A DNA stretch of 36,196 nt from Nitrosospira sp. (GTDB lineage: Bacteria > Pseudomonadota > Gammaproteobacteria > Burkholderiales > Nitrosomonadaceae): assembly GCA_035493655.1 (NCBI GenBank), contig DATJHX010000081.1, positions 1 through 36,196 of the forward strand, read 5' to 3'. Position 1 is the first letter of the stretch; every line of letters starts with the position of its first letter. A program made the translations under genes and the position numbers. Shown here piece by piece: positions 8,562 through 16,482 of this stretch. The notes beneath the pieces are model-generated. The model saw only the letters and a list, made by a program, of their open reading frames with translations, searched no databases and was not told where the DNA came from.

Positions 8562-9905
8562 ATGACCACCCGAGAAGGCAGCCTTGAGGCTCCAAAACGT
8601 CATCCGCTCGATTGGGAAAATCCCGATTTTTACGACGAACCAAAGCTGTTCGCCGAGATGGAGCGTGTATTCGATATCTGCCACGGCTGCCGCCGCTGCG
8701 TCAATCTGTGCACAGCATTTCCCAGCTTGTTCGACCTGATAGACGAGGGGTCCACCGGCGAGCTGGATGGAGTCGAAAAGCAAAAATTCTGGGAGGTGGT
8801 CGATCGCTGCTACCTCTGCGATATGTGCTTCATGACGAAGTGCCCTTATGTTCCACCCCACCCCTGGAATGTCGATTTTCCGCATCTCATGCTGCGCGCC
8901 AAGGCGGTCAAGCACAAAAAAGGGGATATCCGTTTCCGCGATAAATTGCTCTCGAGTACTGACGCCGTAGGCAAGCTGGCGAGTATTCCCGTGGTTGCGC
9001 AGACAGTCAATGCCGTAAATAAAGCGCCAGCGGCGCGCAAGCTGATGGACAGCATGCTGGGTATCCATGCCGAGCGGAAATTGCCCGAGTATGACAGCCA
9101 TAAATTTCGCCCTAATGCACGACCCAATTCTTCTCACGAGGTTCGCGACGGCGCCCGAACACCGGGCAAGGTGGCGATCTATGCCACCTGCTACATCAAT
9201 TACAATGAACCGGGCATTGGTCACGATTTATTGAAAATACTGGATCACAACGAGATTCCGGTGCGGCTGGTGGAAAAAGAGGCTTGCTGCGGCATGCCGA
9301 AGCTGGAACTGGGTGATCTGCCGGCAGTAAAGGAGCTTAAGACGAGGAATATTCCTCCTTTAGTGAAACTGGCGAAAGAAGGGTATGCGATACTAACCGC
9401 TGTGCCATCATGCACCCTCATGTACAAGCAGGAATTGCCGCTCATGTTTCCCGGGGATGAAGATGTGAAGGCTGTGGCGGAGGCGATGTTCGATCCGTTC
9501 GAGTACCTGATGTTGCGGCACCGGGACAGGTTATTGAAAACCGACTTTACACAGCCTCTAGGCAACGTTTCCTATCATATCCCCTGCCATTTGCGGGTGC
9601 AGAATATCGGGCAGAAAACCCGGGAAATGCTGCAACTGGTACCGGGAACCAAAGTGAACGTGGTGGAGCGCTGCTCCGGTCATGATGGCACCTGGGGAGT
9701 CAAGACCGAGCATTTTGCCGAATCAATGAAGATCGGCAGACCGGTTTTCAAGCAGATGGCGGCGTCCGCCCCAGACTACATCAGCTCCGATTGCGCCATT
9801 GCCGCCCGCCATATCAAGCAGGGAATGGATGCTACAGGCACTACCAACGCTCAGAAACAGCATCCGCTGACTCTCATGCGCATCGCTTATGGTCTGGCTG
9901 AATGA
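8562..9905 (+). CDS. Rubrerythrin-associated Fe-S oxidoreductase (GlpC/heterodisulfide reductase-like, CCG domains)
   Basis: CHGCRRCVNLC and CYLCDMCFMTKC clusters, ACCGMP, CSGHDG. Confidence 0.9.
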   Translation: MTTREGSLEAPKRHPLDWENPDFYDEPKLFAEMERVFDICHGCRRCVNLCTAFPSLFDLIDEGSTGELDGVEKQKFWEVVDRCYLCDMCFMTKCPYVPPHPWNVDFPHLMLRAKAVKHKKGDIRFRDKLLSSTDAVGKLASIPVVAQTVNAVNKAPAARKLMDSMLGIHAERKLPEYDSHKFRPNARPNSSHEVRDGARTPGKVAIYATCYINYNEPGIGHDLLKILDHNEIPVRLVEKEACCGMPKLELGDLPAVKELKTRNIPPLVKLAKEGYAILTAVPSCTLMYKQELPLMFPGDEDVKAVAEAMFDPFEYLMLRHRDRLLKTDFTQPLGNVSYHIPCHLRVQNIGQKTREMLQLVPGTKVNVVERCSGHDGTWGVKTEHFAESMKIGRPVFKQMAASAPDYISSDCAIAARHIKQGMDATGTTNAQKQHPLTLMRIAYGLAE

Positions 9906-9998
9906 TATTCAAACTCCGCCTATTCAAACCCTGCCTTATGTAACCTTATGCAACCTTATGCAATCACATTAAAAAAATGCCAGGAATATGCCAGGAAT
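9906..9998. repeat. Cluster of short tandem repeats in an intergenic spacer
   Basis: 15-bp TATTCAAAC..GCC x2 (9906-9935), CCTTATG(T/C)AA x3 (9934-9963) and ATGCCAGGAAT x2 (9977-9998). Confidence 0.85.
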
Positions 9999-10587
9999 TA
10001 GCCGCGATAGCCTGTTGACCCTTGAGGCCTACGCCAAAGCACGGCAGGATTTCCGTGCTCACGTTATGGCCCACAAAAAAAACCGCAAGATCCATCTCGG
10101 GGAAAATGTAACGCTCATTTTTGAGGATGAGCTGACGATACGGTATCAGATTCAGGAAATGCTCCGGGCGGAAAGGATTTTTGATGAAGCGGGCATACAG
10201 GAGGAGCTGGAAGCGTACGACCCCCTGGTTCCCGATGGCGCCAACTGGAAAGCAACCATGATGATTGAATTTCCCGACCCGGTGGAGCGCGCTGCGCGGT
10301 TAAGGGAATTGATCGGAATACAGGATAGAGTCTGGGTAAAAGTTGACGCTCATGATCCGGTTTATGCTATTGCCGATGAGGATATGGACCGCCAAACCGG
10401 GGAAAAGACCTCATCAGTGCATTTTCTGCGTTTTGAGCTAAATTCGGACATGATTGCCGCGCTACGCCAGAATGCCTCCTTGAGCATGGGTATCGATCAT
10501 CCCGCTTATGATGTGTCATCGGGGCCGATAACGGGGCCGGTGAAAGATTCCTTGATCGGCGACCTCGCTTCGAATACCGTTGCATAA
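9988..10587 (+). CDS. DUF3501 family protein
   Basis: YQIQEMLRAERIF, WKATMMIEF and KTSSVHFLRF motifs; canonical neighbour of the rubrerythrin/Fe-S oxidoreductase pair. Confidence 0.9.
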   Translation: MPGISRDSLLTLEAYAKARQDFRAHVMAHKKNRKIHLGENVTLIFEDELTIRYQIQEMLRAERIFDEAGIQEELEAYDPLVPDGANWKATMMIEFPDPVERAARLRELIGIQDRVWVKVDAHDPVYAIADEDMDRQTGEKTSSVHFLRFELNSDMIAALRQNASLSMGIDHPAYDVSSGPITGPVKDSLIGDLASNTVA

Positions 10588-12828: not shown

Positions 12829-12941
12829 GGATGGTTGGTATTAATCAATGCCTGTTTGTACCTATGCGATTTTATCGATAGCGAATTTGCGGTAACTGTA
12901 ATGCATGCGCGTCCTGCTTGGGTCAGGCCCTCTCTTTCCTG

Positions 12942-12980
12942 CCCTCTCCCCCTGCCCCTCCCCCACAACGGGGGAGGGGA
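12942..12980 (+). repeat. CCCTCTCCC-type REP-like element, copy 1
   Basis: CCCTCTCCCCCTGCCCCTCCCCC-ACAAC-GGGGGAGGGGA; same family as the copies at 13167, 19019 and 19213. Confidence 0.75.
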
Positions 12981-13092
12981 GTTAATCGAGCGCAGAGCGG
13001 GAAATTACTGCTGAGGTAGTGGCCGCGTTCGGATTATTTTACCGCAACCGTGAGGCAGGACTCATTTTCTGCAGAACATTCGTCTTGGGCGT

Positions 13093-13605
13093 TTATTTTG
13101 TTTCCTTCTCTCGAAACGGGAGAGGCGGCTGGTCGGCATTATGACTACTGTCCGGGCAGCTACTCTTCCCCTCGTCCATGAATGGGAGAGGGGGCGGGGG
13201 AGAGGGAATTTCGAGCGGAATCAGCTTGCGCCGCAATAGAGCCAGCGTCATCCGTCGTCCGGCCGCGAGCAAAGGATAGGCTGCCGCGGCGATTTTCCTA
13301 TTGCGGAACAATAACTGGTTCAACATGCCAACCACGCCAGAGTCGTTACCGAGTATGGCCAAAAGGTGCATGCCTTCCGCGCCAAAATAATGGCGCCCGC
13401 GCCAGGTCACAATCATGCCCTCATTGATTTCCATCCCTTTGGATCGAAACTCGCGCACCAGAGCGGGTCTTTGCCTCGCATTGATCAGTTCGATGCCACT
13501 CACTTTTTTGCTGATGGAGTAGAGTTTTACAAAGTTAGCGCAGAAGGGACACTCGCCGTCATAAACGATGGATAATTGGTTCGAGCCAATATCACCCGGC
13601 ATCAT
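13093..13605 (-). CDS. DCC1-like (DUF393) thiol-disulfide oxidoreductase
   Basis: VYDGECPFC CxxC motif; ATG overlaps the upstream stop codon (ATGA); C-terminal tail runs through a REP copy. Confidence 0.85.
   Translation of the reverse strand: MMPGDIGSNQLSIVYDGECPFCANFVKLYSISKKVSGIELINARQRPALVREFRSKGMEINEGMIVTWRGRHYFGAEGMHLLAILGNDSGVVGMLNQLLFRNRKIAAAAYPLLAAGRRMTLALLRRKLIPLEIPSPPPPLPFMDEGKSSCPDSSHNADQPPLPFREKETK
13167..13206 (-). repeat. CCCTCTCCC-type REP-like element, copy 2 (inverted relative to copy 1)
   Basis: Minus strand reads CCCTCTCCCCCGCCCCCTCTCCCATTCATGGACGAGGGGA. Confidence 0.7.
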
Positions 13606-14417
13606 GCCCATCCCAGCCAATCAAGCGCCAGCGAGTTCATCACTATGACAGACGGATAGGTGGCGAGGAAGGGCCAGACAAACGCATTCAATCCCATGAA
13701 ATAGGCATTGGAGAGATGAAAGGCGGCAAAGCACAAGAGGCCAGCAGCCACCAGCGCGGGTGGTGCAAACAAGAGGAGTGGAAACAGCGTTTCCGTCAGG
13801 ATGGTCGTCCAGCAAACGAATGAGCAAAAACGGGGGTGCTGTTCACCAAAATAAACTGCAGACAGGTGTCCGTATGACTGTGTCTTCATTACTCCCATCA
13901 ACGCGCTTCCATTGCGCCAAACGGGCGAAGCAAGCTTTGCCGCTCCCGCGGCGAAGTAGGCCAAGGTCGCTTGTCCGGCGATTGCCAGGACTCCGCATAA
14001 AGCAAGGTTGTTATCGCTCAGAACCATGCCGGCTGACATGATAACCACTCCCACTGCAATGACCATCCCCATCTGATCCGATCCATCACCGCCGAGCCAC
14101 GTGCGGCGGGACATATAAAAACAGGAAAGCAGAATCATTACGCTGCACGGGAAATCCATCGGGCTGGAGTAGGGCGTGAGCAACGCAAAGGCGGCGACAA
14201 TACGGCACAGCAGGACCGATATCACAACCGTTTGGGAATGTATGTAAGGGCGAATGGCGGGAGAACTGATCAGAGCGGGCCGCAGACGCAGGATGTTCCA
14301 GGACAACAGACCGCCGGAACGGAAGAGATGAAGATTGGAGAACCACTCCGCCGCGGAGAGCAGCGACCATGCGGCCAGCAGGATCTTCGTTATGACGAGG
14401 CAGGAAGCGATCTCCAT
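13602..14417 (-). CDS. HTTM-domain / SdpB-like integral membrane protein
   Basis: Multi-pass hydrophobic profile; GGDGSDQ, YFAAGAAKLASPVWRNG and FHLSNAYFMGLNAF motifs characteristic of HTTM/SdpB/VKGC-like proteins; TAAGGA RBS. Confidence 0.75.
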   Translation of the reverse strand: MEIASCLVITKILLAAWSLLSAAEWFSNLHLFRSGGLLSWNILRLRPALISSPAIRPYIHSQTVVISVLLCRIVAAFALLTPYSSPMDFPCSVMILLSCFYMSRRTWLGGDGSDQMGMVIAVGVVIMSAGMVLSDNNLALCGVLAIAGQATLAYFAAGAAKLASPVWRNGSALMGVMKTQSYGHLSAVYFGEQHPRFCSFVCWTTILTETLFPLLLFAPPALVAAGLLCFAAFHLSNAYFMGLNAFVWPFLATYPSVIVMNSLALDWLGWA

Positions 14418-14432
14418 CGCGTATTCCTTATA

Positions 14433-14945
14433 TTACCTGCCATGGAAACCGGAGAGGAAGGAGCATTCCAGTGTTCGTGCATCATGTCCCGACGATTCGA
14501 TAATGGCGATTTGAAATTCCACGGCATCCGGTTCCGGCGGCACGGCATGAGCTGCGTAATGCAGGAGAAGCAGGTAAGGCACGGTGAAGGGAATTCCGGA
14601 AATTCCAATATTTTCGCGCTTCAACAGCAATTTTATCGCCTGGACCGCGTCGTTCAGAATTTTGGATGAGCGCTTTTGGGGATTCCAGAAATATCCGAAT
14701 TTTGGCCGCGGCGAATAGACAGGTACGCTTTTCCAGCTTGCCAGGCGCCCATCGCTGCAACGGTCCCTTATTACGAGGTGATAATCCCTGACGCCGGGGT
14801 TGGGTGCGAAAAAAGTCCAGCGAGGAATAATGTGCAGCGCATTGAATGCATTAATAAAAGGCTGAAAGTGCCGGTGTTGCGCCAATAATGTAATAACCAG
14901 CCACAGAATTACTATCGAATACGCCAGAATGGCGACCAGCGACAT
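14433..14945 (-). CDS. SdpA-like membrane-anchored protein (WTFFAPNP motif)
   Basis: N-terminal transmembrane helix, PRWTFFAPNP and WNPQKR; the gene type usually found next to HTTM genes. Confidence 0.65.
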   Translation of the reverse strand: MSLVAILAYSIVILWLVITLLAQHRHFQPFINAFNALHIIPRWTFFAPNPGVRDYHLVIRDRCSDGRLASWKSVPVYSPRPKFGYFWNPQKRSSKILNDAVQAIKLLLKRENIGISGIPFTVPYLLLLHYAAHAVPPEPDAVEFQIAIIESSGHDARTLECSFLSGFHGR

Positions 14946-14961
14946 CGGGGTTAATGCTGGC

Positions 14962-15180
14962 TTAGCGTCGGTTTAACGCACTCTGGCGAAGCCTCATGAG
15001 CGCATCGAGTGACATCCCTTCACCGCCCTTCAGCCCTGCATTATCGCCGGCTTGAGACTCGCCCGCGTTGCCGATGGGTATGACAATATTCTCGTATTTG
15101 TCCGAAACGTCGGATGTCATCTTCCGTGCATCGATAACAGGCTCCAGCCCGGCAAGCTCCACTTCGGTAAGTCCGATCAT
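14962..15180 (-). CDS. 72-aa hypothetical peptide, candidate precursor/substrate
   Basis: Strong GGAGG RBS 4 nt before the ATG; first gene of the operon; 16-nt gap to the next gene. Confidence 0.7.
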   Translation of the reverse strand: MIGLTEVELAGLEPVIDARKMTSDVSDKYENIVIPIGNAGESQAGDNAGLKGGEGMSLDALMRLRQSALNRR

Positions 15181-15263
15181 AGTTCCTCCAAAAGATTAAT
15201 GGCAAAAGATGGTTCTTCGTCGAGGCTGTAAGCAGCAGCCGTAAAAACATCCAGATAGCGGGA

Positions 15264-15408: not shown

Positions 15409-16482
<1,074 letters not shown>

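What the first reader, a model, noticed from the sequence alone, without database searches (positions are those of the whole stretch)
13093..15180. Candidate peptide-modification system: small peptide + SdpA-like + HTTM (VKGC/SdpB-like) + DCC1 oxidoreductase, inserted between obgE and proB
Seen: four co-oriented, tightly coupled genes (gaps of 16 and 15 nt, then an ATGA overlap), led by a 72-aa ORF with a strong GGAGG RBS. The operon splits obgE-proB, which are commonly adjacent in beta- and gammaproteobacteria. Known: an HTTM membrane protein plus a small partner matures peptides in the Bacillus SdpABC toxin system and in linaridin RiPP clusters (CypH/CypL-type). HTTM is also the N-terminal part of vitamin K-dependent gamma-carboxylase. 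Inference: this is a compact RiPP-like or post-translational-modification cassette. The peptide has no Cys, no signal peptide and only 2 Thr, so it matches neither SdpC nor linaridin precursors and may belong to a new class. The operon encodes no protease, exporter or immunity gene.
Basis: partly seen in the sequence, partly recalled or inferred. Interest (0 to 1): 0.82.

Follow-up and report, generated by a model that had tools for sequence, protein, structure and literature searches.

The report
Linaridin-like peptide cassette with clamped cores
An ammonia-oxidising bacterium carries a four-gene operon whose small peptide belongs to a large unnamed family with two conserved end helices around a variable middle, which a two-part membrane enzyme related to linaridin-antibiotic enzymes likely remodels chemically, although the operon has no cutting or export gene.

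Summary
The operon is real: 72-aa peptide, LinL/DUF5819-like protein, LinG/HTTM-like membrane protein, DCC1 (CxxC). Closest relatives are Nitrosospira. The peptide is under purifying selection (dN/dS 0.11-0.18). It occurs in 11 of 12 relatives that have the HTTM gene and 0 of 24 that lack it. The enzymes are LinG/LinL homologues: 28-35% identical over nearly full length to HTTM domains of linaridin-type Streptomyces clusters, versus about 16% to human GGCX and no hit to SdpA/SdpB models. New here: in loci from eight phyla the gene before LinL usually encodes a precursor with a conserved N-helix (LT..EL..LD) and C-terminal follower (LS...L..LR) around a hypervariable core. 179 clusters at 50% identity match this profile, and no sampled member belongs to a Pfam or NCBIfam family. 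These cassettes lack the linaridin hydrolase, mostly add DCC1 (41 of 51), and form a separate HTTM branch. The likeliest chemistry is cytoplasmic L-to-D epimerisation with possible Thr dehydration (inferred). Vitamin-K carboxylation is disfavoured because no menaquinone pathway was found. Expression, binding and product are unshown. This scan earlier noted a related LinG/LinL operon with a secreted peptide on other DNA.

The parts
14962..15180 (-). 72-aa precursor-like peptide: N-terminal helix motif, variable core, C-terminal follower motif
   Evidence: 60-88% identical orthologue in 11 of 12 relative loci, the twelfth cut by a contig end; dN/dS 0.11-0.18; family of 179 clusters
15185..15189 (-). 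GGAGG ribosome-binding site of the peptide gene
   Evidence: sequence; similar GGAGG before most orthologues
15133..15171 (-). conserved leader motif L-[TS]-x-x-E-L-x-x-L-[DE]-x-x-I (residues 4-16), predicted amphipathic helix
15025..15123 (-). approximate core (residues 20-52): conserved within Nitrosospira, unrelated in sequence and length between lineages
   Evidence: boundaries inferred
14986..15018 (-). conserved follower motif G-[LM]-S-x-x-x-L-x-x-L-R (residues 55-65); L61 and R65 invariant in 18 aligned precursors
   Evidence: same motif ends PxxxTP precursors of a subset of actinobacterial clusters
14433..14945 (-). LinL-like (DUF5819-like) protein, one N-terminal TM helix, PxWxFFAPxP motif
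   Evidence: about 28-38% identity to the LinL-position protein of linaridin-type Streptomyces clusters; invariant P41 F45 F46 P48 P50 K95 D99 Y124 Q145 S165 H168; AF2 pLDDT 85.5
13602..14417 (-). LinG-like HTTM membrane protein with GGCX transmembrane-domain fold
   Evidence: 28-35% identity over about 250 aa to LinG/LinH domains; VIA Z 16.1, rmsd 3.9, 236 aligned to GGCX 59-318; K161 W167 H234 in 82 of 82 rows
13093..13605 (-). DCC1-like thiol-disulfide oxidoreductase (DGECPFC); about 40 extra C-terminal residues compared with most orthologues
   Evidence: PF04134 E 5e-9, above cut-off; lengths and repeat
15409..16473 (-). obgE GTPase (upstream flank, not part of the system)
   Evidence: PF01018
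11710..12828 (-). proB glutamate 5-kinase (downstream flank, not part of the system)
   Evidence: PF00696 + PUA

Best explanation
This is a hydrolase-less, linaridin-type cassette in which the LinG-like membrane protein and its LinL-like partner likely bind the peptide by its two conserved end helices and probably convert residues of the looped-out core from L to D, possibly also dehydrating Thr. Shown: gene order, co-inheritance, purifying selection on the peptide, the two-motif precursor architecture across phyla, homology of both enzymes to LinG/LinL, and the GGCX-like fold. Inferred: (1) the active site faces the cytoplasm, because the loops next to K161 and the DGxDQ motif are the K/R-rich ones, which fits a precursor without a signal peptide; (2) K161, which lines up with the catalytic GGCX K218, and the invariant D111/D114/H234 supply acid-base chemistry for C-alpha deprotonation; (3) DCC1 is an accessory reductant for the complex or a bound quinone; (4) with no protease or exporter in the operon, the product stays intracellular, intact or trimmed by host proteases. 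The whole-length conservation and polar core in Nitrosospira point to a cell-internal or signalling role rather than a membrane-lytic toxin.
For: Homology: window proteins match linaridin-architecture Streptomyces clusters (fused or split HTTM + alpha/beta hydrolase, LinL, methyltransferase, PxxxTP precursors) at 28-35% for HTTM (E 2e-35 to 4e-20) and about 28-38% for LinL. Literature: LinE/G/H/L are the linaridin-defining proteins (bioRxiv 2020.07.09.196543); type-A linaridins carry several D-amino acids and grmL may encode the epimerase (PMC10373908). Substrate-like precursor: motif HMMs trained only on 13 Sphingobacteriaceae peptides ranked the ORF upstream of LinL above all 4,619 background ORFs in 19 of 30 loci from other lineages (13 of the 19 are the Nitrosospira clade), within the top 2 background scores in 3 more, and missed 8. 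In metagenome loci picked by LinL alone, 51 of 64 with enough upstream DNA passed, and the 4 best 'background' hits were themselves family members. The same follower ends PxxxTP precursors of actinobacterial clusters: 9 of the top 11 of 1,479 ORFs scored were such precursors. One locus has tandem copies (L031). Cores differ freely, some lacking Glu (L117, L119) or Thr (L085), which suits residue-tolerant chemistry. Co-occurrence: 11 of 12 versus 0 of 24 in the genus; all 4 LinL-positive genomes of 151 Sphingobacteriaceae have a two-motif precursor next to LinL. Topology: mean K+R 5.6 and 5.5 in loops 1 and 5 against 0.4-0.6 in loops 2, 4 and 6.
Against: No modification, binding or translation is shown. 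The N. multiformis orthologues (Q2Y806 peptide and neighbours) are absent from the supplementary tables of a published proteome in which Obg, L27 and L21 appear (PMC5960693). The window's core has one Thr and no PxxxTP, and 0 of 130 parsed family cores have PxxxTP. The type I HTTM proteins lie on a separate branch (99/98) from all hydrolase-containing clusters, so the chemistry may have diverged. I could not confirm that any Streptomyces cluster used is an experimentally characterised linaridin; they are classed by architecture. That CypH and CypL together epimerise and dehydrate is recalled (Xue 2023, title seen only). DCC1 is not a linaridin core gene, and it persists alone at this site in one relative (L225). 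Loop 7 (240-256) is not K/R-rich, so the side of H234-F246 rests on helix counting.
Confidence: 0.55

Rival explanations
1. Quinol-dependent Glu carboxylase like GGCX: HTTM + DUF5819 rebuild a GGCX-like enzyme, the end helices act as propeptide, and DCC1 recycles the cofactor as VKOR's partners do.
For: Only GGCX structures match the model (13 Foldseek hits at E<=0.001; Z 16.1). The aligned range offsets (+57 to +52/53) put K161, A157, F233, N237 and F246 on GGCX K218, A214, F286, N290 and F299, which are catalytic or vitamin-K-pocket residues (mapping inferred from ranges and spacing). A preprint models a DUF5819 + HTTM-DCC1 pair with menaquinol and proposes carboxylation (bioRxiv 2026.08.19.745780). 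DCC1 is adjacent in 41 of 51 GTDB type I loci and 27 of 37 metagenome loci.
Against: menB and menD 0 of 5 over cut-off and the MqnA/D family 0 of 5 in G000 plus four 99-100% complete cassette-bearing relatives, while UbiG passes in 4 of 5. Identity to GGCX is 15-19% against 28-35% to LinG. No conserved Asn-His pair like GGCX's Glu pocket appears among invariant columns. Some cores have no Glu, although 126 of 130 parsed cores with linkers have at least one.
Confidence: 0.12
2. The peptide is not a substrate but a small subunit or regulator of the membrane complex (for example the missing half of the GGCX-like clamp), and the real substrate is encoded elsewhere.
For: Single copy, conserved along its whole length in Nitrosospira; no protease or exporter; fused to DCC1 in Paraburkholderia (L030); the preprint notes one clamp side is missing.
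Against: Core length ranges from about 30 to 110 aa with unrelated sequence; tandem copies at L031; the same follower sits on PxxxTP linaridin-type precursors; strong RBS on the peptide gene only.
Confidence: 0.13
3. The core is modified (dehydration or another LinG-type reaction), cut out at both ends by host proteases and released as an amphipathic bacteriocin- or surfactant-like peptide.
For: Most family cores are Ala/Val/Thr/Ile-rich (A 17.5%, V 11.7%, T 8.4%; 129 of 130 contain Thr) and often begin with an F-I motif resembling a cut site. Related Sdp/Yit systems make secreted toxins (PMC6818787).
Against: The Nitrosospira core is polar with one Thr; there is no signal peptide, and no hydrolase or ABC ATPase was detected near the cassette in the 51 type I loci (ATPase test was a motif regex); purifying rather than diversifying selection.
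Confidence: 0.2

Closest known systems
Linaridin maturation pair LinG (HTTM part of LinH/CypH) + LinL
   Same: Both enzymes homologous over nearly full length; same invariant Lys/Trp/His and FFAP motifs; small precursor next to them; follower shared with a subset of actinobacterial PxxxTP precursors.
   Different: No LinE hydrolase, methyltransferase, ABC transporter or PxxxTP; order peptide-LinL-LinG-DCC1; leader plus follower with an internal core; eight phyla, whereas Georgiou et al. found all but two linaridin clusters in Actinobacteria; separate HTTM branch (99/98).
Bacillus SdpABC / YitPOM
   Same: Small DUF5819-type protein + HTTM protein + peptide in one operon (architecture recalled; SdpA/YitP, SdpB/YitO pairing seen).
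   Different: No NCBIfam SdpA/SdpB hit for window proteins; relatives reach at most 29 bits against the 178 cut-off of TIGR04033; SdpC/YitM have secretion signals and yitPOM has an antitoxin, this peptide has neither.
[quoted passage not shown]
   Same: TM-domain fold (Z 16.1, rmsd 3.9, 236 residues) and probable counterparts of K218, A214, F286, N290, F299.
   Different: 15-19% identity; split into two small proteins; predicted cytoplasm-facing site; host lacks menaquinone pathway genes.
DUF5819 + HTTM-DCC1 pair of Melghirimyces (bioRxiv 2026.08.19.745780)
   Same: Same three domains; Lys/Trp/Phe spacing (K189, W195, F273) matches K161, W167, F246 within one residue.
   Different: The passages seen name no substrate peptide and propose carboxylation; DCC1 is fused there, separate here.

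Membership tests
Linaridin BGC | LinG (HTTM) homologue | tested here: met
   28-35% identity over about 250 aa to HTTM domains of linaridin-architecture clusters; these clusters are classed by architecture, not as named characterised ones
Linaridin BGC | LinL homologue | tested here: met
   E 8e-22 to 7e-8 to LinL-position proteins in those clusters
Linaridin BGC | LinE alpha/beta hydrolase (alone or fused as LinH) | tested here: not met
   none in the operon; 0 of 51 LinL-upstream loci have one within -2.5 to +3 kb
Linaridin BGC | precursor with PxxxTP and C-terminal core | tested here: not met
   absent in the window peptide and in 0 of 130 parsed family cores
Linaridin BGC | dehydrobutyrine / D-amino acids in the product | not testable with these tools
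   needs LC-MS/MS and Marfey analysis
SdpABC | SdpA and SdpB family models | tested here: not met
   no NCBIfam hit at E<=1
SdpABC | signal-peptide-bearing SdpC-type precursor | tested here: not met
   72 aa, maximum hydropathy 0.67, no Cys
GGCX-type carboxylase | HTTM fold with catalytic Lys (K218) | tested here: met
   K161 in 82 of 82 rows; residue match inferred from range offset and spacing
GGCX-type carboxylase | Glu pocket N159/H160/Y395 | tested here: inconclusive
   no residue-level structural alignment available; no invariant Asn-His pair, DGxDQ conserved instead; Y395 is outside the aligned range 59-318
GGCX-type carboxylase | menaquinone available in the host | tested here: not met
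   menB, menD, PF02621: 0 of 5 genomes over cut-off; uptake from outside not excluded
DCC1-like oxidoreductase (PF04134) | Pfam match and DxxCxxC | tested here: met
   37.8 bits against cut-off 27.8; DGxCxxC in all 17 loci printed

The most novel reading that the evidence does not exclude
A new, phylum-spanning RiPP class: precursors whose leader and follower helices pair to clamp a hypervariable core, processed by a minimal LinL/LinG/DCC1 machine that uses redox-recycled quinol chemistry like GGCX's to deprotonate unactivated backbone carbons. Classical linaridins would be a derived actinobacterial offshoot that gained a hydrolase and lost the follower.
Probability: 0.2. Interest if true: 0.9.

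Novelty: new variant of a known kind. Interest (0 to 1): 0.72.

Why it matters
How LinG/LinL (and SdpAB) act, and what bacterial GGCX-like proteins do, are open questions. This cassette reduces the problem to two enzymes, one redox helper and a soluble peptide in Gram-negative hosts, including cultured Nitrosospira multiformis and Pedobacter strains, so it can be tested in E. coli. The leader-plus-follower design with freely varying cores would be a plug-in scaffold for making D-amino-acid peptides. It also adds an unannotated precursor family of at least 179 divergent clusters and extends linaridin-type enzymes well beyond Actinobacteria. It points to an unknown peptide product in soil ammonia oxidisers.

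Tried and rejected
Complex prediction (HTTM + LinL + peptide) never ran because the queue was full, so binding is untested. Sequence search of the HTTM profile against PDB gave 0 hits even at E 10. Fold searches with the LinL-like model found nothing clear (Foldseek 0 at E<=0.001; best Z 4.8); this does not show a new fold. ESM Atlas gave no hit of 0.8 or more for the peptide. Pfam/NCBIfam scans of family peptides gave nothing above cut-off (24 proteins; peptides). RNA evidence: five runs held small shares of a relative's locus; four were laid and gave low-depth contig pieces over peptide, LinL and HTTM, which cannot show transcription. The best sigma-70-like site (15205-15176) has its -10 box over the peptide start codon, so it was rejected as the operon promoter; 4 sites were found against 1.7 expected. 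GC is level with the flanks (0.51-0.55), and no flanking direct repeats were found, so there is no sign of recent insertion. SdpB membership was rejected. 0 of 399 other genomes scored in the class carry the LinL-like gene at E<=1e-8 (one more genome not scored). The tree root, and so the order of events, was not tested. Genomic context of the 137 short peptides could not be fetched, so their linkage to LinL/LinG is assumed from the loci I could read. bioRxiv supplements (linaridin HMMs and precursor lists of Georgiou et al.) were not seen and may already list some follower-bearing actinobacterial precursors.

Full report
Observation. The four ORFs, the 16- and 15-nt gaps, the ATGA overlap and the GGAGG site are as described. 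Flanks are obgE and proB. Named close homologues are Nitrosospira/Nitrosovibrio. Pfam recognises only DCC1 above cut-off. The membrane protein has a weak LMF1 hit and the small protein a DUF5819 hit at E 0.26. NCBIfam finds nothing.

The peptide is a real, linked gene. An orthologue (60-88% identity) precedes the small protein in 11 of 12 relative loci; the twelfth is cut by a contig end. Pairwise dN/dS against the window is 0.11-0.18 in 5 of 7 pairs; the other two are saturated at synonymous sites (pS 0.78, pN 0.17-0.18). Of 36 same-genus genomes, 12 carry the membrane protein. The peptide is found once in 11 of these and in 0 of the other 24. Kin are not independent, so this shows co-inheritance only. 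In ten cassette-less genomes about 99% complete, obg-proB is adjacent in 4, holds DCC1 alone in 1, and has other genes in 5. The site is variable, and loss from an ancestor is as plausible as insertion. The LinL-like gene was not found in 399 other genomes of the class. The N. multiformis orthologues are annotated hypothetical and do not appear in the supplementary tables of one proteome study where neighbouring Obg does (PMC5960693; supplements searched).

What the enzymes are. AlphaFold2 on an 82-row alignment gave pLDDT 94.7. The only significant structural matches are human GGCX (Foldseek E 2e-5, TMq 0.61-0.67, 15-16% identity; VIA Z 16.1, rmsd 3.9, residues 2-266 on 59-318). By sequence the pair is much closer to linaridin-type clusters. 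A LinL profile hit 54 of 301 Streptomyces genomes. I fetched 20 of these regions; 17 showed HTTM, alpha/beta hydrolase and LinL, mostly with a methyltransferase and PxxxTP precursors, one with the FANxxL leader motif described for linaridins (motifs from bioRxiv 2020.07.09.196543, Results parts 1-2 of 3 read). The window's membrane protein is 28-35% identical to their HTTM domains over about 250 residues, and its small protein about 28-38% to their LinL. I therefore call them LinG-like and LinL-like.

Two architectures. A GTDB scan found 309 relatives and kept the best 80. In 51, LinL lies directly upstream of the HTTM gene and no hydrolase is nearby (type I). These come from Pseudomonadota, Bacteroidota, Acidobacteriota, Actinomycetota, Myxococcota, Chloroflexota, Gemmatimonadota and Eremiobacterota, several being MAG labels. 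DCC1 is adjacent in 41 of the 51. The other 29 are actinobacterial, with LinL downstream and a hydrolase in 28. In a tree of 62 rows (19 near-duplicates dropped) the two types separate at 99/94. In a 49-row tree adding 11 classical follower-less domains, type I is split from all hydrolase-containing clusters at 99/98. The root was not tested.

The precursor family. The ORF upstream of LinL in type I loci has a conserved N-terminal motif (L-[TS]-x-x-E-L-x-x-L-D-x-x-I) and a conserved C-terminal motif (L-S-x-x-x-L-x-x-L-R) around an unrelated middle. Motif HMMs trained on 13 Sphingobacteriaceae peptides alone placed the upstream ORF above all 4,619 background ORFs in 19 of 30 loci from other lineages (13 Nitrosospira-clade), near the top in 3, and missed 8. 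Two misses are contig ends; others carry recognisable variants. In 80 metagenome loci chosen by LinL alone (best of 431), 7 were hydrolase-type. Of the other 73, 64 had at least 450 nt upstream and 51 passed; many are kin of training sequences. HTTM followed in 54 of 60 and DCC1 in 27 of 37 with room. The four best background hits were displaced family members. An 18-row profile matched 179 clusters at 50% identity. Of the 146 newly listed, 137 are peptides of 150 aa or less and 130 parsed into the three parts, none with PxxxTP; seven long repeat proteins were false hits to the C motif. Their context is unknown. A long subtype (258-331 aa) puts an unknown domain before the same two motifs. The follower also ends PxxxTP precursors of Amycolatopsis-type clusters but not the classical ones printed.

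Mechanism. K161, W167, H234, Y154 and Q149 are present in 82 of 82 rows, D111 in 81 and D114 in 80. Range offsets and spacing put K161, A157, F233, N237 and F246 on GGCX K218, A214, F286, N290 and F299, which a GGCX structure preprint describes as catalytic or cofactor-pocket residues (passages); this mapping is inferred. K/R distribution puts loops 1, 3 and 5, and so K161 and DGxDQ, in the cytoplasm. Carboxylation needs a naphthoquinol, yet menB, menD and the MqnA/D family are not found over cut-off in G000 (81% complete) or four near-complete cassette-bearing relatives, while UbiG is found in those four. One type I Bacteroidota genome also lacked menB; the futalosine route was not tested there. 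Reviews state that type-A linaridins hold several D-amino acids and that grmL may be the epimerase (passages). That CypH and CypL jointly epimerise and dehydrate is recalled; the paper is not held. Epimerisation is residue-tolerant and fits cores without Glu or without Thr, so it is my lead reading (0.55). Against it, 129 of 130 cores have Thr and 126 have Glu, so composition does not exclude the rivals. The recurring DCC1 hints at redox chemistry that linaridin models do not include.

Novelty. Searches for HTTM + RiPP + epimerase (0 papers), HTTM + linaridin (2), linaridin + CypH/CypL (2), linaridin + D-amino acid (7), SdpA/B/C, GGCX + bacterial homolog/HTTM, linaridin + follower peptide (12 listed, mostly general reviews; passages of two read) and DCC1 + HTTM showed no description of this precursor family or of hydrolase-less LinG/LinL cassettes. 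The library lacks most subscription journals. A 2026 preprint models a DUF5819/HTTM-DCC1 complex without naming a substrate in the passages seen. Verdict: works like a linaridin maturase, fails linaridin membership on hydrolase and precursor, and defines a new variant with a new precursor family; interest 0.72.

Noticed in passing
L225 (G008) about 1067-1459: A relative keeps the DCC1 orthologue alone between obgE and proB, without peptide, LinL or LinG.
   Followed up: partly
window 13093-13215 and 12926-12990: The DCC1 ORF runs about 40 residues beyond most orthologues into a short C/G-rich repeat with look-alikes on five other contigs; an inverted partner lies at 12942-12965. L017 has a similar extension.
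   Followed up: partly
L030:4704-5492 (Paraburkholderia kirstenboschensis): DCC1 domain fused in frame in front of the two-motif peptide, upstream of LinL; radical-SAM/B12, PhyH-type and methyltransferase genes flank it on the other strand.
   Followed up: partly
L066:4549-5466, L089:4561-5406, L217:4046-5038, L236:1841-2614: Long precursor subtype: an unknown domain of about 180 aa (no Pfam hit in the three scanned), mutually homologous, precedes the leader motif, core and follower.
   Followed up: partly
L039, L048, L050, L053, L057, L067, L093: Actinobacterial linaridin-like precursors carry a C-terminal follower after the PxxxTP core, implying a second cleavage; some of these clusters also have DCC1 downstream.
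   Followed up: partly
L116, L124: Precursor with a core of tandem ADHEAA repeats between the two motifs.
   Followed up: no
L227, L229, L231, L233 downstream of obg: A conserved 413-420-aa opposite-strand ORF follows obg in four cassette-less relatives; it looks like a PepSY-associated TM protein (recalled, not scanned).
   Followed up: no
P0215, P0227, P0233, P0243, P0290, P0298: A His/Asp/Glu-rich subfamily of the precursor with a second long helix, unlike the Ala/Val/Thr-rich majority.
   Followed up: no
window 8562-10587: Fe-S oxidoreductase-like ORF followed by a conserved 199-aa ORF, resembling the rubrerythrin-associated cluster (recalled, not scanned).
   Followed up: no
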